From IMG/VR virus record IMGVR_UViG_2675903505_000004: DNA of 4,030 nt; one strand, written 5' to 3'. Positions 1 through 4,030 of the stretch are shown in pieces. Each line of letters begins with the position of its first letter. Position 1 is the first letter of the stretch. Source of the DNA: a virus. Lineage: Duplodnaviria; Heunggongvirae; Uroviricota; Caudoviricetes. Both the position numbers and the translations under genes were made by a program. The notes beneath the pieces were generated by a model. That model saw nothing but the letters and a program-made list of their open reading frames with translations, searched no databases and was not told the DNA's origin.

Positions 1-77
1 GCCACCGTGTATTTCTGGTCAACAACCAGTTGAGCGGATTCGCGTTTAAACTCTGCGCTAAAATTTCTTTTTTTCAT
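1..77 (-). CDS. insN: IS911 OrfA (InsN-like transposase regulatory/DNA-binding subunit), N-terminal 25 codons only; continues past position 1
   Basis: Revcomp of 1-77 translates [25 protein letters not shown], which matches the N-terminus of IS911 OrfA as I remember it. Start ATG is complement of 75-77. Confidence 0.8.
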
Positions 78-113
78 TGGAGCACCTGTGTTGTTCTGAG
101 GTGAGCATATCAC

Positions 114-149
114 CTCTGTTCAGGTGGCCAAATTCAGTGTGCCACTTCA
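114..149 (-). repeat. IS911-like terminal inverted repeat (IRL), 36 bp
   Basis: Revcomp of 114-149 aligns with 3971-4006 at 24 of 36 positions, including 8/8 terminal bases TGAAGTGG and a shared GGCCACC core. This is the imperfect-IR pattern typical of IS3-family ends. Confidence 0.75.
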
Positions 150-334
150 CCCATAATGGGCTTTTAATCCTATCGTTTATTGCTTGCATAGTAGAATCTA
201 ACCATCCATCACTCATAGCTAACCCTCGGAAATCTTACATTTCTGTCTATCATAACCACTAGCATCACCTTTAGGAACCATCTGAAACGGGAGGTGTATT
301 TAGACCTTGCTAATCTTAGACAGCCGCCCGGTTC

Positions 335-598
335 ATGCATCACGTCCACACAGTGAATGGTCTGAAAACATCAATGTCGCGTAAAGGTAACTGTTACGAC
401 AACGCTCCGATGGAAAGCTTCTGGGGAACGCTGAAAAATGAGAGCCTGAGCCACTATCGTTTTAATAACCGGGATGAAGCCATCTCAGTAATACGGGAAT
501 ACATTGAGATTTTCTACAATCGTCAGCGTCGTCACTCTCGTCTGGGGAATATCTCCCCGGCAGCCTTCAGGGAAAAATATCATCAGATGGCTGCTTAA
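335..598 (+). pseudogene. IS3-family transposase (OrfB, DDE integrase core) C-terminal fragment; not IS911
   Basis: Translation contains SMSRKGNCYDNAPMESFWGTLKNE and EYIEIFYNRQRRHSRLGNISP, the conserved C-terminal block around the catalytic E of IS3-family OrfB. Only about 85 codons are present; frame is open from 314 but recognisable homology begins near 345. No upstream catalytic domain, so it is a remnant. It differs from the IS911 OrfB C-terminus as I recall it (GNCWDNSPMERFF). Confidence 0.8.
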
Positions 599-838
599 AA
601 AAGAACAAATGGTAGTGTCCGCTATTGCCAGTACACCTCACAACGCCATCCTGACAAGCGTTTTATCTTCAACGGGAATGAGATATGGAAACGTGGAGAA
701 TCAACCACAGAGTATACCCGCGCACACCAGCGAACAATCAGACGACTGCGCAGACTCATCGCCAGGAAACAGTATACAGAAAAATGGTTCAGAAAATATG
801 ACACATGGAGCGCCGGATATTACGAACTGATGGCAACA
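599..838 (+). pseudogene. Possible 3' remnant of a truncated gene (79 codons, no start codon), basic C-terminal tail
   Basis: Frame +2 is open from just after the transposase-fragment stop (596-598) to TGA 836-838 and encodes ...NGNEIWKRGESTTEYTRAHQRTIRRLRRLIARKQYTEKWFRKYDTWSAGYYELMATKPF with no internal Met until the last few codons. Protein-like composition but no family recognised. Confidence 0.2.
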
Positions 839-910
839 AAACCATTCTGACGTAAACGAAATTAACCATGACGCAATTAAATAAGGCAAGCCGAATACAT
901 CAGGAGGACC

Positions 911-1099
911 ATGAACATTTATTTCAGAATAGTTATATCACTGGCAATTATCGCATGTATTTACGGATTAATCGTTCCGGCCCTCATATCAATGAAGGAT
1001 ACGGTAGCAGTGATTTCTGGCTTTGCTCTGGCGTGTCTGACCCCGCCCTGCATTTATGCCATTTATAAGGGTCTTTCTTTTTCTAAGGATAAAAGATGA
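911..1099 (+). CDS. Small membrane protein, 62 aa, two predicted TM helices with basic C-terminus
   Basis: SD-like AGGAGG at 903-908 then ATG 911. Two hydrophobic segments (RIVISLAIIACIYGLIVPALI and VAVISGFALACLTPPCIYAIY) separated by a short polar loop. Stop TGA 1097-1099 overlaps the next gene's ATG (ATGA at 1096-1099). Confidence 0.55.
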   Translation: MNIYFRIVISLAIIACIYGLIVPALISMKDTVAVISGFALACLTPPCIYAIYKGLSFSKDKR

Positions 1100-1923
1100 A
1101 AAAAGTTATTCCTGCTTTAGCCCTTGTTCTGCTGACCACCGGACTTGTCGGTTGCGATCGCGTTGAGCCTGGTAATGTTGGCATCAAGGTAAACAAACTG
1201 GGCGACGATAAAGGCGTCGGAGAAGTGGTCGGTGTTGGGCGCTACTGGACGGGATGGAACACTGAGGTTTACATCTTCCCGACCTTCAAACAAATGAAGA
1301 CCTACGATGAGCCATTCAGCTTCCAGATGAGTGACGGTACAACCATCGGCTATCACATCGGCGTGGCCTACAAAGTTGATCCATCCAAAGTTACCACAGT
1401 CTTTCAGACCTACCGCAAAGGCGTGGACGACATTACCGACACCGACCTGCGCCAGAAGATAGCCGACGCACTCAACCGACTGGCCAGCAAAATGACCACC
1501 GACAAATTTATCGACGGCGGCAAGTCTGAGCTGCTGGATGCAGCTCTTAAAGACATTCAGGAAGAAATGACGCCCATCGGTATTCAGGTAATGAGCCTCT
1601 CATATGTGGGTAAGCCGGAGTACCCGCCTACTGTTATCGACAGCATTAATGCCAAAGTCACGGCGAACCAGAAAACCCTGCAATGCGAGCAGGAAGTAAA
1701 ACAGCGCGAAGCGGAAGCCAACATGTTGCGCGCGGAAGCTGCCGGACAGGCAGATGCGATTCGCACAAAAGCCCAGGCCGAAGCCGATGCTATTCGTTTA
1801 CGCGGTGAAGCTCTGCGCCAGAACCCAAACGTTATGGAGCTGGAAGCCATCAACAAGTGGAACGGTACACTGCCGCAATACATGACCAGCGGTGCCAACA
1901 CACCATTTATTCAGGTTAAGTAA
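1096..1923 (+). CDS. SPFH/band-7 (prohibitin/HflC-like) domain lipoprotein, 275 aa, predicted inner-membrane-anchored and periplasm-facing
   Basis: N-terminus MKKVIPALALVLLTTGLVGC is a signal peptide with lipobox LVGC; the residue after the Cys is Asp (CDRVEP), the classic inner-membrane retention signal. The body has an SPFH-like core followed by an Ala/Glu/Arg-rich coiled coil (REAEANMLRAEAAGQADAIRTKAQAEADAIRLRGEA) as in HflC/HflK/prohibitin C-termini. SD AAGGA at 1085-1089. Confidence 0.8.
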   Translation: MKKVIPALALVLLTTGLVGCDRVEPGNVGIKVNKLGDDKGVGEVVGVGRYWTGWNTEVYIFPTFKQMKTYDEPFSFQMSDGTTIGYHIGVAYKVDPSKVTTVFQTYRKGVDDITDTDLRQKIADALNRLASKMTTDKFIDGGKSELLDAALKDIQEEMTPIGIQVMSLSYVGKPEYPPTVIDSINAKVTANQKTLQCEQEVKQREAEANMLRAEAAGQADAIRTKAQAEADAIRLRGEALRQNPNVMELEAINKWNGTLPQYMTSGANTPFIQVK

Positions 1924-1930
1924 TACATAT

Positions 1931-1951
1931 GCCCGGTATTACACGCCGGGC
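1931..1951 (+). promoter_or_regulatory. GC-rich stem-loop in the SPFH to ORF6N intergenic region (6-bp stem GCCCGG/CCGGGC, 9-nt loop)
   Basis: Inverted repeat at 1931-1936 and 1946-1951 read directly from the sequence. It is not followed by a T-run, so it is more likely an RNA processing or stability element, or a partial attenuator, than an intrinsic terminator. Confidence 0.3.
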
Positions 1952-1966
1952 TGTCTGGAGATAAAA

Positions 1967-2716
1967 ATGAATACTGTAACCATCAACAACAAACAGTTTC
2001 CGGTAATCGAATATCGCGGTCAGCGTGTTGTGACGCTGGCGATGATTGATGAAGTCCACCAGCGACCGGAAGGAACCGCGCGTGCAGCATTCAACCGAAA
2101 CCGTGAGCATTTCATCAGCGGTGTGGATTATGCCGAATTAGGTGCGGACGTAATACGTACGGACCTCCCGGAAGGAACATTCTCTAAATTTGCACCATCG
2201 GGGATTGTACTTTTTGAATCAGGTTACCTGATGTTGACGAAGCCATTCAATGACGCCCTTGCCTGGCAGGTTCAGCGCGAACTGGTTAACAGCTACTTCC
2301 GCACTCGCACACCGCTAACGGAAATCGAGATGATCGCTGCGATAGCCGCCGACGCTGTTCGTCAACAGAAGCGCCTGAATCATGTGGAAGAACAGCTCGA
2401 AACAGTCACAGAAGCGGTGGAAACCATCAAACGCGGAAATATGCGCGCCGGATATGTCGGTTACCGCCAGGTGGTAGCCAAAAGTGGAATGAGTGACACC
2501 AAGTGTCGGAATCTGGTGAACGCATATCAAATTCCTACAGACACCCACGAATTCATGACTCCGGACGGTCTGTTGTCTCGCAGGGCTATCGTCGAGCTTG
2601 AGCCATTTATGGCGGCGTTCCACCAAATGATGTCAGAGGCTGACCCACGCGGCACACGCTGGTATCACCCGAAGATGGGGCTTTTCCAGGTGATCGGATG
2701 GGAGGATAAAGCATGA
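1967..2716 (+). CDS. ORF6N/KilA-N-like DNA-binding domain protein (phage antirepressor-like N-domain) with coiled-coil middle and uncharacterised C-terminal domain, 249 aa
   Basis: Start chosen at ATG 1967 (GGAG at 1957-1960, 6-nt spacer) rather than the upstream in-frame ATG 1892 that overlaps the SPFH gene. N-terminus MNTVTINNKQFPVIEYRGQRVVTLAMIDEVHQRPEGTARAAFNRNREHFISGVDYAEL fits the ORF6N/KilA-N pattern. Stop TGA 2714-2716 overlaps the next ATG 2713 (ATGA). Confidence 0.65.
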   Translation: MNTVTINNKQFPVIEYRGQRVVTLAMIDEVHQRPEGTARAAFNRNREHFISGVDYAELGADVIRTDLPEGTFSKFAPSGIVLFESGYLMLTKPFNDALAWQVQRELVNSYFRTRTPLTEIEMIAAIAADAVRQQKRLNHVEEQLETVTEAVETIKRGNMRAGYVGYRQVVAKSGMSDTKCRNLVNAYQIPTDTHEFMTPDGLLSRRAIVELEPFMAAFHQMMSEADPRGTRWYHPKMGLFQVIGWEDKA

Positions 2717-3282
2717 TCATCCAGTCAAAACTTATTCGCGCCGCTCTGGTGTGCGCTGCTAAAAACGACGTTCGTTATTACCTGAACGGTCTTCACATCA
2801 CGCCGAAACATATTGAGGCAACCAATGGTTCCGTGGCACTGCGCATGGCTCACGGCATCCGGACGAAGAAAAACATCATTGTCCAGTTCGAAGGGGGCGT
2901 CCCGGCCAAAGCCGAAACGACAGAGCTGATTTTTAGTAAAGAGCCGATCGCTGTTCATCGCGACCAGTTTCAGCGACGACTGTCCATTACCGGCATTAAA
3001 CTGGTGGACGGTTGTTTTCCGGATTTGGATCGCATCATTCCGAAAAAGTTTGACCGCTGTACTCACCCGGTGCTCCAGGCGGGTTACCTGAGTTATCCAG
3101 AGAAGATGTTTGGTCGTGAGCGTAAATTTATTCCCGTCCAGTTACGTCCCTCCGGTGACGGGCAAGCGGTCAGAATTCAGTTTGATTCCATCATCAACTC
3201 AATGTATGGCAATCCTGAATTTGTTGTGATGCCTTGTCGTGATCATGGCGATTTCAACGTGGCTCAGGAGCATCCGGAATGA
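2713..3282 (+). CDS. DNA polymerase III beta sliding clamp (DnaN) domain II-III-like protein; truncated clamp homolog lacking domain I, 189 aa
   Basis: Three blocks align with E. coli DnaN as recalled: AKNDVRYYLNGLHI vs AHQDVRYYLNGMLF (domain II), IKLVDGCFPDLDRIIPKK vs SKLVDGRFPDYRRVLPKN (domain II/III junction), and EFVVMPCR vs AYVVMPMRL (extreme C-terminus). The domain III equivalent is shortened. Own SD GGAGGA at 2701-2706. Stop TGA 3280-3282 overlaps the next ATG 3279. Confidence 0.65.
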   Translation: MIIQSKLIRAALVCAAKNDVRYYLNGLHITPKHIEATNGSVALRMAHGIRTKKNIIVQFEGGVPAKAETTELIFSKEPIAVHRDQFQRRLSITGIKLVDGCFPDLDRIIPKKFDRCTHPVLQAGYLSYPEKMFGRERKFIPVQLRPSGDGQAVRIQFDSIINSMYGNPEFVVMPCRDHGDFNVAQEHPE

Positions 3283-3401
3283 AAATCGAATACCAGGACG
3301 CCGCAGGAGGTGAATCAATGAGCTGGCCTGATGCAATCGTAACTCTGGGGATGGTATTCGCAGTAGCGTTTGTTGTGTACTCGATTTGTCGATGGGGATA
3401 A
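3279..3401 (+). CDS. Tiny single-TM membrane peptide (40 aa from ATG 3279; alternative start ATG 3318 gives 27 aa)
   Basis: Not in the supplied ORF track (too short). Translation MKIEYQDAAGGESMSWPDAIVTLGMVFAVAFVVYSICRWG, stop TAA 3399-3401. ATG 3279 is ATGA-coupled to the clamp-like gene with AGGAG at 3266-3270; the internal ATG 3318 is preceded by a strong AGGAGG at 3305-3310. Hydrophobic core LGMVFAVAFVVYSI. Confidence 0.3.
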   Translation: MKIEYQDAAGGESMSWPDAIVTLGMVFAVAFVVYSICRWG

Positions 3402-3405
3402 CCAC

Positions 3406-3648
3406 ATGTTCGCTTTGATTCAACGCGGGCAGATATACACAGACAGAGCCGGATACCCAGTAGAAATTACTCGCAGTACTGAGCACTCAGTGTTCTTTCG
3501 GAGGATGGACGGACGTACCGGGCGAGTACGCATCGGTGAATTCAGTAGCCTGTTCGAGCATATTGACCACCTGGAATATCACAAGATTCTGGCTGAAACA
3601 GAACAAGAAAAGCACCTGAAGAAATTACGCGCAATGCAAAGGAAGTAA
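3406..3648 (+). CDS. Small phage-type protein, DUF4222-like, 80 aa
   Basis: Start ATG 3406 (MFALIQRGQIYTDRAGYPVEITRSTEHSVFFRRMDGRTGRVRIGEFSSLFEHID...) preferred over the track's ATG 3370, which would overlap the upstream peptide. The spacing of YxDxxG, V.IT, V.F.RR and GEF...F resembles DUF4222 proteins from lambdoid prophages as I recall them. Stop TAA 3646-3648. Confidence 0.45.
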   Translation: MFALIQRGQIYTDRAGYPVEITRSTEHSVFFRRMDGRTGRVRIGEFSSLFEHIDHLEYHKILAETEQEKHLKKLRAMQRK

Positions 3649-3651
3649 AAA

Positions 3652-3798
3652 ATGAATAAAGCGTTTGAGCTATGGGTCCACCAGCGTTACGGCAACCACT
3701 ACGACCTGACGCGAGATGTTGACGGTTTCTACTGTCGTGAAATTGTGAAACGAATGTTTGAGGTCTGGTGCCACTGCCGTGGGCTGAGTGTTGTGTGA
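3652..3798 (+). CDS. Small Cys/His-containing protein, 48 aa
   Basis: Not in the supplied ORF track. SD AGGAAG at 3638-3643, then ATG 3652, only 3 nt after the upstream stop. Translation MNKAFELWVHQRYGNHYDLTRDVDGFYCREIVKRMFEVWCHCRGLSVV, stop TGA 3796-3798. Possible metal ligands C28, C40, H41, C42. Confidence 0.3.
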   Translation: MNKAFELWVHQRYGNHYDLTRDVDGFYCREIVKRMFEVWCHCRGLSVV

Positions 3799-3806
3799 GG
3801 TAATGC

Positions 3807-4004
3807 ATGGGCAATGTGATTCAACTGGCTCCCAATGAATGGGTTTGTGAAAGCGTTCTAATCGCAATTACCGGGCTCAAACCAGGCACAATTCTTCGGA
3901 CCCGGAAAGAATGCTGGATGGTTGGAAGAGAGTATATTCACGTATCACCAGACGGTAATCCAAAGCCTTCTGAAGTGGTCAACAAAAACTGGCCACCGAG
4001 TTAG
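3807..4004 (+). CDS. Excisionase-like (phage Xis/DUF1233-like) protein, 3' end disrupted by IS911-like insertion; chimeric ORF whose last 10 codons and stop are IS-derived
   Basis: SD GAGG at 3797-3800 then ATG 3807. Translation MGNVIQLAPNEWVCESVLIAITGLKPGTILRTRKECWMVGREYIHVSPDGNPKPS resembles excisionase-like small DNA-binding proteins of lambdoid prophages (recalled motif TGLKPGTI...RK.CWM.GREY.H..PDGNPKP). From codon 3972 onward the reading frame lies inside the IS inverted repeat (EVVNKNWPPS, then stop). Confidence 0.5.
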   Translation: MGNVIQLAPNEWVCESVLIAITGLKPGTILRTRKECWMVGREYIHVSPDGNPKPSEVVNKNWPPS

Positions 4005-4006
4005 AG
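3971..4006 (-). repeat. IS911-like terminal inverted repeat (IRR), 36 bp
   Basis: 24 of 36 positions identical to the revcomp of 114-149, including the terminal TGAAGTGG and the GGCCACC core. Confidence 0.75.
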
Positions 4007-4030
4007 TTTTTCCAGTATCGATTTTCCGAT
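3971..4030 (-). mobile_element. IS911-like (IS3 family) insertion sequence, partial: IRR end; element body continues beyond window end
   Basis: 3971-4006 reads TGAAGTGGTCAACAAAAACTGGCCACCGAGTTAGAG, the imperfect inverted-repeat partner of the element end at 114-149. The outer tip is at 3971 and the body extends rightward, so the element is in the same (minus) orientation as the left copy. Confidence 0.75.

What the first reader, a model, noticed from the sequence alone, without database searches (positions are those of the whole stretch)
2713..3282. Stand-alone truncated beta-clamp (DnaN domain II-III-like) gene inside a prophage operon
The 189-aa product keeps three recognisable DnaN signatures (DVRYYLNG, KLVDG.FPD, and the C-terminal VVMP.R) but lacks domain I and has a shortened domain III. 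It is diverged, has its own SD and start, and is translationally coupled on both sides, so it looks like an evolved gene rather than a fragment of host dnaN. In DnaN the ring-closing dimer interface pairs domain I of one protomer with domain III of the other. A protein with only the II-III half could in principle cap or poison host clamp dimers, or titrate clamp-binding partners. That would make it a candidate host-takeover, replication-control or abortive-infection effector.
Basis: partly seen in the sequence, partly recalled or inferred. Interest (0 to 1): 0.78.

Follow-up and report, generated by a model that had tools for sequence, protein, structure and literature searches.

The report
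Truncated phage sliding-clamp pocket protein
This prophage gene encodes a quarter-sized relative of the bacterial DNA sliding clamp that keeps the pocket where replication and repair proteins dock but lacks the parts needed to close a ring, so it probably binds clamp partners and does not act as a clamp; it belongs to a large, unstudied phage family.

Summary

One correction: the protein is DnaN domain II joined to the second half of domain III. E. coli residues ~251-312 and all of domain I are missing.

All 18 residues of the clamp-binding-motif pocket fall in the retained parts. Across 159 diverse relatives, on average 69% carry the E. coli residue at those positions, against 20% elsewhere. 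The idea of titrating clamp partners is supported.

The gene is not a one-off. There are 2,435 clusters at E<=1e-10, mostly 165-215 aa. Median dN/dS is 0.079. Homologs occur in temperate and virulent phages, with or without their own polymerase, and the gene appears dispensable in phage seszw.

Databases already call it "beta clamp domain-containing", "Pol III beta subunit" or, wrongly, "RusA-like". I found no functional study.

This copy sits in an IS-bracketed prophage remnant and carries a rare H175->S change. Peptide binding, target and oligomeric state remain untested.

The parts
2701..2706 (+). Shine-Dalgarno GGAGGA, 6 nt upstream of the ATG; it lies inside the 3' end of the upstream gene
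   Evidence: Read directly from the sequence
2713..3282 (+). Gene for the 189-aa truncated beta-clamp homolog (21.4 kDa, pI 9.2); ATGA overlaps at both ends
2713..3042 (+). aa 1-110: module like DnaN domain II (E. coli ~133-249). Holds DVRYYLNG (2767-2790; R152, L155) and T37-N-G-S40 (2821-2832; T172, G174, H175->S)
   Evidence: 52-57 bits vs domain II, below 0 vs domain I and either half of III; residue map
2830..2832 (+). Codon 40 (TCC, Ser), the equivalent of pocket-bridging His175. His in 90% of the family; S, F or C in the clade that is >=94% identical in protein sequence
2998..3045 (+). aa 96-111: KLVDGCFPDLDRIIPK, the last strand of domain II plus the inter-domain linker (E. coli K235-K250; P242, R246, V247 of subsite I)
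3061..3240 (+). aa 117-176: module matching the second half of DnaN domain III (E. coli ~316-365). Helix with Q122/Y125 (N320/Y323), two strands, a short inserted helix, then the final strand FVVMPCR (V360-R365)
   Evidence: Family C-terminal profile: 29.0 bits vs DnaN 308-366, 3.6 bits vs 245-312; secondary structure of the model; residue map
3241..3279 (+). aa 177-189: C-terminal tail; pLDDT falls to 74 in residues 171-180 and is below 50 for 182-189 (disordered). Absent in distant subfamilies
   Evidence: alignment A1
1967..2716 (+). Upstream, translationally coupled gene: ORF6N N-terminal domain plus a conserved C-terminal module ending RWYHPKMGLFQVIGWEDKA
   Evidence: PF10543 E 2e-12; phrog_1726 anti-repressor; ATGA overlap in 67 of 76 related loci, C-module in 62 of 75
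3279..3401 (+). Downstream coupled gene for a 40-aa protein with a hydrophobic C-terminal stretch (predicted small membrane protein); matches no family
640..3970 (+). Prophage early-left operon remnant: 62-aa membrane protein (911-1099), SPFH lipoprotein (1096-1923), ORF6N gene, clamp-like gene, 40-aa ORF, DUF4222 (3406-3648), 48-aa ORF (3652-3798), 5' part of the excisionase (3807-3970)

Best explanation
The gene encodes a small, stand-alone derivative of the beta sliding clamp. It consists of DnaN domain II joined directly to the last beta-alpha-beta-beta-beta half of domain III. These are the elements that together form the hydrophobic cleft where clamp-binding motifs (QLxLF type) dock. Domain I and the first half of domain III are gone; they carry both faces of the ring-closing interface and nearly all dsDNA contacts.

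The most likely mechanism is that the protein does not encircle DNA. Instead it acts as a soluble receptor for clamp-binding-motif peptides and competes with host beta for one or more proteins that carry such a motif. This would be an early, accessory, host-directed phage function.

Shown here: the architecture, the homology, conservation of the pocket, purifying selection, wide distribution in phages, and dispensability for lytic growth in one phage.

Inferred, not shown: that it binds peptides, which protein it binds, its oligomeric state, and the benefit to the phage.
For: Architecture:
- N-terminal 110 aa match domain II at 52-57 bits. The C-terminal 68 profile positions match DnaN 316-366 at 29.0 bits, against 3.6 bits for 245-312.

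Pocket:
- All 18 pocket residues listed in PMC11139829 fall in retained segments.
- In 159 diverse members the fractions identical to E. coli are R152 .98, L155 .96, T172 .93, G174 .99, H175 .90, P242 .99, Y323 .90, M362 .97, P363 .92, R365 .84 and N320 .72.
- The mean is .69 at pocket positions against .20 elsewhere. Conservation is higher at Mann-Whitney p = 4e-6. The window protein is identical at 11 of 18 pocket positions against 30 of 141 elsewhere.

Ring features lost:
- I272, L273, E298 and E304 lie in the deleted segment, and I78, F106 and R103 are in the absent domain I.
- The dsDNA contacts Q15, G23, R24, R73 and R80 are in domain I.
- The model has no helix between strands 55-60 and 69-73, where a conserved Pro64 sits.

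A real, selected gene:
- 2,435 clusters at E<=1e-10. Of the 147 newly returned representatives among the best 150, 138 are 165-215 aa and none is 300 aa or more.
- Median dN/dS is 0.079.

Accessory and host-directed:
- It lies in the int-proximal early operon of lambdoid prophages.
- It lies in small islands near Lar, Dam and Dcm genes in siphophages.
- It is gp01, at one genome end, of a T7-like Ralstonia phage.
- It occurs in a Dhillonvirus that has its own Pol I.
- No neighbour is conserved across subfamilies.
- It is present at >=99% identity in 47 seszw-lineage records, against 72 for the coat gene, so viable deletion mutants appear to lack it (PMC9825161).
Against: - Nothing here shows that it binds peptides.
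- Oligomeric state could not be modelled.
- Pocket residues are also the most conserved residues of DnaN in general. Part of their retention may serve folding of the II-III junction or reflect how relatives were found.
- The window copy has a rare H175->Ser change, plus R176V, L177A, V344G and M364C.
- The family is basic (window pI 9.2, family median 8.4) whereas DnaN is acidic (5.25). The decoy model does not predict this, and it could point to nucleic-acid binding.
- Lambdoid phages depend on host Pol III, so indiscriminate titration of clamp partners would harm the phage. Any target must be selective.
- This copy lies in an IS-bracketed remnant with no recognisable sigma-70 promoter.
Confidence: 0.5

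Rival explanations
1. It assembles into a non-canonical oligomer. Two copies could pair their orphan half-domains to rebuild a pseudo-domain III, and four copies (4 x 1.5 domains) could then close a six-domain ring. That ring would serve as an alternative clamp or DNA-tracking platform.
For: Removing half of domain III should expose the core of that domain. The two halves of a clamp domain are pseudo-symmetric (established knowledge of the fold; also the reason hhalign chose the wrong half). The protein spans three of the twelve half-domain units of a ring. The family is basic. Some records call relatives 'processivity factor'.
Against: There is no domain I and no canonical interface residues. 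The model lacks the helix expected between strands 55-60 and 69-73 in the domain II-like part. I saw no clamp loader or clamp-dependent polymerase next to it in the loci examined, and it occurs in phages with Pol I-type polymerases. It appears dispensable in seszw. The multimer model could not be run.
Confidence: 0.1
2. It caps or poisons host beta. A free edge strand pairs with an open host clamp protomer and blocks ring closure.
For: The last strand of the domain II-like part (aa 89-97) is the repeat-equivalent of the domain I strand that pairs with domain III in the beta dimer, and it has no intramolecular partner here. This is inferred from the repeat topology of the fold, not tested.
Against: The interface-equivalent residues are not notably conserved; the positions conserved in >=70% of members are mostly pocket residues or their motif neighbours. 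Poisoning the host clamp would also block replication of lambdoid phages that need Pol III.
Confidence: 0.07
3. In the enterobacterial prophage lineage it is the partner of the upstream antirepressor-like protein. The conserved C-terminal HP-x-x-G-x-F motif of that protein (here KMGLF, resembling delta AMSLF and Pol II QLGLF) docks in the pocket.
For: ATGA coupling in 67 of 76 loci. The upstream C-terminal module is kept in 62 of 75 loci while the N-terminal domain varies between ORF6N, BRO-N and others. The motif is also present on an unrelated upstream protein with a Cys-rich, zinc-ribbon-like segment.
Against: ORF6N homologs at 82-87% identity, with H234 and M237-G238-L239-F240 of the motif invariant in the alignment, are followed by other small genes in Atlantibacter, Enterobacter and Klebsiella. 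Distant subfamilies show no such motif in neighbours. There is no clean co-variation with pocket residues. Relaxed motif hits in the operon are at chance level, 2 against 1.4 expected. The AF2 model of the upstream protein is unusable, pLDDT 41.6.
Confidence: 0.1
4. The family is functional, but this particular copy is an inert passenger: unexpressed or functionally altered within a decaying prophage remnant.
For: Prophage homology runs only from 640 to 3970. IS911 and IS600 fragments lie on the left, and an IS911 end cuts the excisionase gene at 3971. No sigma-70-like promoter was found, 0 against 4.6 expected. The H175 equivalent is Ser, seen in 2 of 159 diverse members.
Against: The ORF is intact and identical in several independent records. 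The close clade still has dN/dS of about 0.2. The S/F/C variation at codon 40 occurs on otherwise conserved proteins, which looks more like retuning than decay.
Confidence: 0.15

Closest known systems
Bacterial beta sliding clamp DnaN (E. coli b3701; Pfam DNA_pol3_beta_2/_3; TIGR00663)
   Same: Homologous fold and sequence over domain II and the second half of domain III. The clamp-binding-motif pocket residues are largely kept.
   Different: 189 aa instead of 366. It has no domain I and no first half of domain III, so it has no canonical dimer interface and almost none of the dsDNA contacts. It is basic, not acidic. It scores below all curated family cut-offs.
Short phage proteins annotated 'DNA polymerase III beta subunit' or 'beta clamp domain-containing protein' (phrog_3007)
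   Same: Same family: phrog_3007 E 6e-65 over the full length; BFVD models of 178-215 aa with TM-score about 0.8 in both directions; homologs in 253 phage records.
   Different: None in kind; the window protein is one member. It differs by the H175->S change and by a 13-residue tail and a short inserted helix typical of the enterobacterial subfamily. The family name 'RusA-like Holliday junction resolvase' appears to be wrong.
E. coli beta* (UV-inducible 26-kDa product of an internal dnaN start; Skaliter, Paz-Elizur, Livneh and colleagues, 1996). Recalled from memory; not found in the searchable library
   Same: A natural clamp product that starts at the beginning of domain II and lacks domain I.
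   Different: As I recall it, beta* keeps a complete domain III and was reported to oligomerise and support processive synthesis. The protein here lacks half of domain III, including the interface residues.
Non-ring clamp-fold processivity factors of herpesviruses (UL42, UL44, PF-8, BMRF1)
   Different: They have two full domains, bind their own viral polymerase and DNA directly, and show no specific sequence relationship. In the loci examined, no polymerase gene lies next to the clamp-like gene here.
Phage proteins that target the host clamp system (Twort Gp168; N4 gp8 against clamp-loader delta, the latter from memory)
   Same: Possible functional analogy: small early phage proteins that interfere with the clamp interaction network (PMC11139829).
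   Different: No homology. Gp168 plugs the DNA channel of beta. The protein here is itself a clamp fragment and would act by offering a competing pocket.

Membership tests
DnaN beta sliding clamp | Three homologous domains in about 366 aa | tested here: not met
   189 aa. Only domain II and the second half of domain III are matched; domain I scores below 0 bits.
DnaN beta sliding clamp | Score above the curated family cut-offs (TIGR00663; PF02767; PF02768) | tested here: not met
   TIGR00663 21.2 bits vs 137.65. PF02767 17 bits vs 27. No PF02768 hit.
DnaN beta sliding clamp | Clamp fold and homology of the retained domains | tested here: met
DnaN beta sliding clamp | Head-to-tail dimer interface (I78, F106, R103 with I272, L273, E298, E304) | tested here: not met
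   All of these residues lie in segments with no counterpart in the protein.
DnaN beta sliding clamp | Clamp-binding-motif pocket (subsites I and II; 18 residues) | tested here: met
   All 18 map to retained segments. The window protein is identical at 11 of 18; the family mean is 0.69 identical. Binding itself was not tested.
DnaN beta sliding clamp | Closed ring loaded on DNA by the clamp loader | not testable with these tools
Indirect evidence argues against it.
Short phage clamp-like family (phrog_3007) | Full-length match to the family profile and a length of about 170-215 aa | tested here: met
   E 5.9e-65, residues 1-179 on profile positions 3-188 of 190. Representatives have a median length of 187 aa.
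Short phage clamp-like family (phrog_3007) | Family-invariant motifs (RYYL.G, T.GH, FPD, Y125, MP.R) | tested here: met
   All present except H40, which is Ser here.
RusA Holliday junction resolvase (the name attached to phrog_3007) | RusA fold or the Pfam RusA domain (PF05866) | tested here: not met
   No RusA hit in Pfam at E<=1. The fold is a clamp. A genuine RusA gene (PF05866) sits elsewhere in locus L084.
Anti-phage defence systems (PADLOC-DB) | Match to any defence-protein model | tested here: not met
   No hit at E<=0.1 for this protein or six neighbours.
E. coli beta* (internal-start DnaN product) | Complete domains II and III | tested here: not met
   The first half of domain III is absent. 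The definition of beta* is from memory.

The most novel reading that the evidence does not exclude
The protein is a quarter-ring protomer. Orphan half-domains pair across a two-fold axis, and four copies close a six-domain ring with pockets on both faces. This would be a fourth sliding-clamp architecture (4 x 1.5 domains), alongside 2 x 3 (beta) and 3 x 2 (PCNA, gp45), and it would be encoded by many phages.
Probability: 0.08. Interest if true: 0.85.

Novelty: new variant of a known kind. Interest (0 to 1): 0.6.

Why it matters
The beta clamp is the hub through which bacterial replication, repair and regulatory proteins reach DNA, and its peptide pocket is an antibiotic target.

A large phage family that has kept just that pocket would be a natural minimal pocket module. 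If it binds clamp-binding motifs, it would represent a way for phages to tap or rewire the clamp interaction network by offering a competing pocket, rather than by attacking the clamp itself.

It would also give a small, soluble scaffold for studying or screening pocket ligands.

On a practical level, many deposited phage genes are currently labelled 'DNA polymerase III beta subunit', which implies a working clamp, or 'RusA-like Holliday junction resolvase', which appears to be wrong. A correct description would improve phage annotation.

Tried and rejected
- **Homodimer model.** Oligomeric state is therefore untested.
- **AFDB50 fold search.** The library was unavailable.
- **Pattern search with a very diverse alignment (A3).** No conserved stretch was usable. 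I used annotated phage records instead.
- **First residue map.** MAFFT with --keeplength shifted the E. coli numbering and gave a wrong table. I discarded it and redid the map with hmmalign.
- **hhalign placement of the C-terminus.** It ran contiguously into the first half of domain III. I rejected this after a direct competition between the two halves; pseudo-symmetry of the fold explains the error.
- **Clamp-binding motifs in operon neighbours.** No canonical Q-type motif was found, and relaxed hits were at chance level.
- **Upstream KMGLF motif as ligand.** Followed up and downgraded, because the motif is conserved in homologs that have no clamp-like gene downstream.
- **AF2 of the upstream protein.** pLDDT 41.6, uninformative.
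- **Defence-system membership.** No PADLOC hit.
- **Recent duplication of host dnaN.** Rejected.
- **Literature.** Searches for a description of the family or of beta* found nothing usable. The supplement of the seszw study is not held.
Full report
**1.

The window has an ORF at 2713-3282 (+), 189 aa. GGAGGA lies at 2701-2706, 6 nt before the ATG. ATGA start/stop overlaps join the gene to the upstream gene (2713-2716) and the downstream gene (3279-3282).

As a single sequence the protein is only weakly DnaN-like:
- PF02767: E 0.007, 17 bits against a cut-off of 27.
- TIGR00663: 21 bits against a cut-off of 137.65.
- PDB phmmer: E about 2e-3.

With family information the homology is secure:
- hhalign of the family alignment against E. 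coli DnaN gives 98.7% probability, E 4e-16.
- The AF2 model is confident, pLDDT 90.9 and pTM 0.86.
- The 50 Foldseek PDB hits listed (of 62 at E<=0.001) are all bacterial beta clamps.

It is not a recent copy of host dnaN. Amino-acid identity is 28%, and at the nucleotide level only two short patches, corresponding to the motifs, match.

**2. What the architecture really is**

The N-terminal 110 residues match DnaN domain II at 52-57 bits. They score below 0 against domain I and against either half of domain III.

hhalign extended the match contiguously into the first half of domain III. This is an artefact of the internal pseudo-symmetry of clamp domains. I built a profile from 159 diverse family members. 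Its C-terminal 68 positions match DnaN 316-366 (IGFN-x-x-Y-L helix, three strands, VVMPMRL) at 29.0 bits, against 3.6 bits for DnaN 245-312.

So the protein is DnaN ~133-250 joined to ~313-366. Domain I and the first half of domain III (~251-312) are absent.

**3. What is kept and what is lost**

I used the residue lists in PMC11139829 and an hmmalign map onto E. coli numbering. All 18 residues of the clamp-binding-motif pocket fall in retained segments.

Fraction of 159 diverse members identical to E. coli at each pocket position:

| Residue | Fraction | Residue | Fraction |
|---|---|---|---|
| R152 | .98 | N320 | .72 |
| L155 | .96 | Y323 | .90 |
| T172 | .93 | M362 | .97 |
| G174 | .99 | P363 | .92 |
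| H175 | .90 | R365 | .84 |
| P242 | .99 | | |

- The mean is .69 at pocket positions and .20 at the other 141 aligned positions. Conservation is higher at pocket positions (Mann-Whitney p = 4e-6).
- The window protein is identical at 11 of 18 pocket positions, against 30 of 141 elsewhere (Fisher p = 8e-4).
- Of the 25 positions conserved in at least 70% of the family, most are pocket residues or their motif neighbours.

By contrast, the hydrophobic core of the ring-closing interface is missing. I272 and L273, together with E298 and E304, lie in the deleted segment. I78, F106 and R103 are in the absent domain I. Five of the six named dsDNA-contact residues (Q15, G23, R24, R73, R80) are in domain I. 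The model also has no helix between strands 55-60 and 69-73, where a conserved proline (P64, 77%) sits. From my knowledge of the E. coli structure, that is the position of the second channel-lining helix of domain II.

**4. It is a large, selected phage family**

- A word-index search found 78 relatives of about 188 aa in Enterobacterales and about 179 aa in more distant members.
- The exhaustive profile search found 11,861 clusters at E<=1e-3, 2,435 at E<=1e-10 and 60 at E<=1e-30. Of the 147 newly returned representatives among the best 150, 138 are 165-215 aa (median 187) and none is 300 aa or more.
- Median pairwise dN/dS among 63 unique enterobacterial alleles is 0.079.
- tblastn finds homologs in 253 phage genome records from Salmonella, Escherichia, Klebsiella, Vibrio, Acinetobacter, Proteus, Burkholderia and other hosts.
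- BFVD holds many phage models of 178-215 aa with TM-scores of about 0.8 in both directions.

The annotation is inconsistent. Names in use include 'beta clamp domain-containing protein' (PGAP), 'DNA polymerase III beta subunit', and 'RusA-like Holliday junction resolvase' (the phrog_3007 label). The last is unsupported: there is no RusA domain and the fold is a clamp.

I found no paper that describes or tests the family. The searchable library is incomplete.

**5. Genomic context**

In intact relatives the gene lies in the early-left operon of a lambdoid prophage. In E. coli PEC240 the order is repressor-type HTH genes, small ORFs, a ParE-like gene, an SPFH lipoprotein, the ORF6N protein, this gene, a 40-aa ORF, DUF4222, a 48-aa ORF, xis and int, and the prophage is integrated beside yecE (DUF72). 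In strain FDAARGOS_944 the prophage sits next to mlrA. This lineage is present in 60 of 5,426 complete E. coli genomes.

Distant members sit in other settings:
- Early or 'nin'-type regions and small accessory islands, next to NinX, DUF551, RusA, DnaB-type helicase, primase, ParB-like proteins, Lar and Dam/Dcm methyltransferases.
- As a lone opposite-strand gene among structural genes in Dhillonvirus TheodorHerzl, which has its own Pol I.
- As gp01, the first annotated gene at one end of the genome, in a T7-like Ralstonia phage. That would be the early region if the record follows the usual T7 orientation, which I did not confirm.

No neighbour is conserved across subfamilies, and the gene does not track the phage's replication strategy.

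In the genome-reduction study of Skatevirus seszw (PMC9825161), the deposited genomes allow a direct count. The coat gene is present at >=99% identity in 72 records. The clamp-like gene is present in 47. About a third of the viable mutants therefore appear to lack it, so it seems dispensable for lytic growth in the laboratory. This is an indirect count; I did not inspect individual deletions.

**6. Most likely mechanism**

The conserved part of the protein is the docking cleft, and the ring-forming and DNA-contacting parts are gone. The best-supported reading is a soluble, non-ring receptor for clamp-binding-motif peptides that competes with host beta for one or more motif-bearing proteins, as an early accessory function.

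- Shown: architecture, pocket conservation, selection, distribution, dispensability.
- Inferred: peptide binding, the target, and the benefit to the phage.

Lambdoid phages need the host Pol III holoenzyme, so the target is probably selective rather than the whole interactome.

Points the model does not explain:
- The basic charge: window pI 9.2 and family median 8.4, against 5.25 for DnaN and 6.1 for the equivalent DnaN segments.
- The behaviour of codon 40.

**7. Codon 40**

The equivalent of His175, one of the two residues that bridge the subsites, is His in 90% of the family. In the E. coli/Shigella clade, whose proteins are at least 94% identical, it is Ser (TCC), Phe (TTC) or Cys (TGC). 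It is Arg in a Klebsiella-type clade. Repeated change at the centre of the pocket on otherwise conserved proteins could mean retuning of specificity or relaxed constraint. I cannot tell which.

**8. A lead that weakened**

The upstream protein ends in RWYHPKMGLFQVIGWEDKA, and 'KMGLF' resembles delta AMSLF and Pol II QLGLF.

In favour of a partnership:
- Across 76 related loci, 67 show the ATGA overlap.
- The upstream C-terminal module is conserved in 62 of 75 loci, while the N-terminal domain varies between ORF6N, BRO-N and others.
- The HP-x-x-G-x-F motif also appears on an unrelated upstream protein with a Cys-rich, zinc-ribbon-like segment.

Against it:
- ORF6N homologs at 82-87% identity, with H234 and M237-G238-L239-F240 of the motif invariant in the alignment, are followed by other small genes in Atlantibacter, Enterobacter and Klebsiella.
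- Distant subfamilies lack such a motif in neighbours.
- Co-variation with pocket residues is not separable from phylogeny.
- The AF2 model of the upstream protein is unusable.

I keep this as a minor rival. The slot after the ORF6N gene looks like a variable cargo position.

**9. This particular copy**

Homology to prophages runs only from about 640 to 3970. Positions 1-149 look like an IS911 end read in reverse, and 335-598 encodes the C-terminal part of an IS3/IS600-family transposase. A second IS911-type end (TGAAGTGGTCAAC...) starts at 3971 and cuts the excisionase gene, as in E. coli FDAARGOS_944. No sigma-70-like promoter is detected in the window, 0 against 4.6 expected. The upstream protein is 100% identical to a Shigella flexneri record. 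Whether this copy is expressed is unknown.

**10. Verdict**

- The family is already recognised as clamp-like in databases, so its existence is not new.
- The pocket-only architecture and its functional implication are, as far as I could find, undescribed.
- I rate it a new variant of a known kind, with interest 0.6.

Noticed in passing
window 1-149, 335-598 and 3971-4030: The prophage segment is bracketed by IS elements. An IS911-type end lies in reverse at 1-149. A 3' fragment of an IS3/IS600-family transposase gene lies at 335-598. A second IS911-type end (TGAAGTGGTCAAC...) starts at 3971 and truncates the excisionase gene; the same insertion is seen in E. coli FDAARGOS_944. The two ends share 20 of their first 30 bases.
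   Followed up: partly
window 2830-2832 (codon 40): The equivalent of pocket-bridging His175 is Ser here. Within the clade that is >=94% identical in protein sequence it switches between TCC (Ser), TTC (Phe) and TGC (Cys). It is His in 90% of the wider family and Arg in a Klebsiella-type clade.
   Followed up: partly
window 2656-2716 (C-terminus of the ORF6N protein): A conserved motif RW-x-HP-x-x-G-x-F, here HPKMGLF, resembles the clamp-binding motifs delta AMSLF and Pol II QLGLF. It is conserved even in homologs with no clamp-like gene downstream, so it might bind host beta or might simply be structural.
   Followed up: partly
phrog_3007 and phage GenBank records (e.g. NC_031924.1 gp47, NC_054891.1 gp01): The PHROG family is labelled 'RusA-like Holliday junction resolvase', and the name has spread to many phage records. 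The protein has a clamp fold and no RusA domain, so this looks like a propagated misannotation.
   Followed up: yes
loci L098-L105 (Atlantibacter, Enterobacter, Klebsiella prophages): The position directly after the ORF6N gene holds different small genes in different prophages: an 87-aa PyocinActivator-family gene, a 123-aa unknown, a 73-aa unknown, or the clamp-like gene. This suggests a variable cargo slot next to xis/int.
   Followed up: partly
window 1-4030: No sigma-70-type promoter-like site was found on either strand (0 found, 4.6 +/- 2.1 expected from shuffles). This is consistent with a long co-transcribed operon whose promoter has been cut off by the IS insertion.
   Followed up: no
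window 3406-3648 (DUF4222 protein, aa 44-52): Contains GEFSSLFEH, a relaxed x-S-L-F match to the end of clamp-binding motifs. Such matches are at chance level across the operon (2 found, 1.4 expected).
   Followed up: partly
Salmonella phage Fels-1, NC_010391.1 2529-2849: Fels-1 holds only a partial match (residues 80-187, 70% identity), annotated as two hypothetical proteins. It may be a disrupted copy.
   Followed up: no
seszw mutant genomes (MZ375295-MZ375332 series): The clamp-like gene is present at >=99% identity in 47 records, against 72 for the coat gene. Many viable genome-reduced mutants therefore appear to have lost it, yet the smallest genome listed (39.9 kb) retains it.
   Followed up: partly
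window 2713-3282, whole protein: The protein is basic (pI 9.2; family median 8.4), whereas DnaN is acidic (pI 5.25; 6.1 for the equivalent segments). No explanation considered here accounts for this shift.
   Followed up: no
L001 11604-11822 and L097 2604-2822 (intact relatives of this operon): A ParE family toxin-like gene lies a few genes upstream in the same early-left operon of intact prophages. It is not present in the window because of the IS truncation.
   Followed up: no
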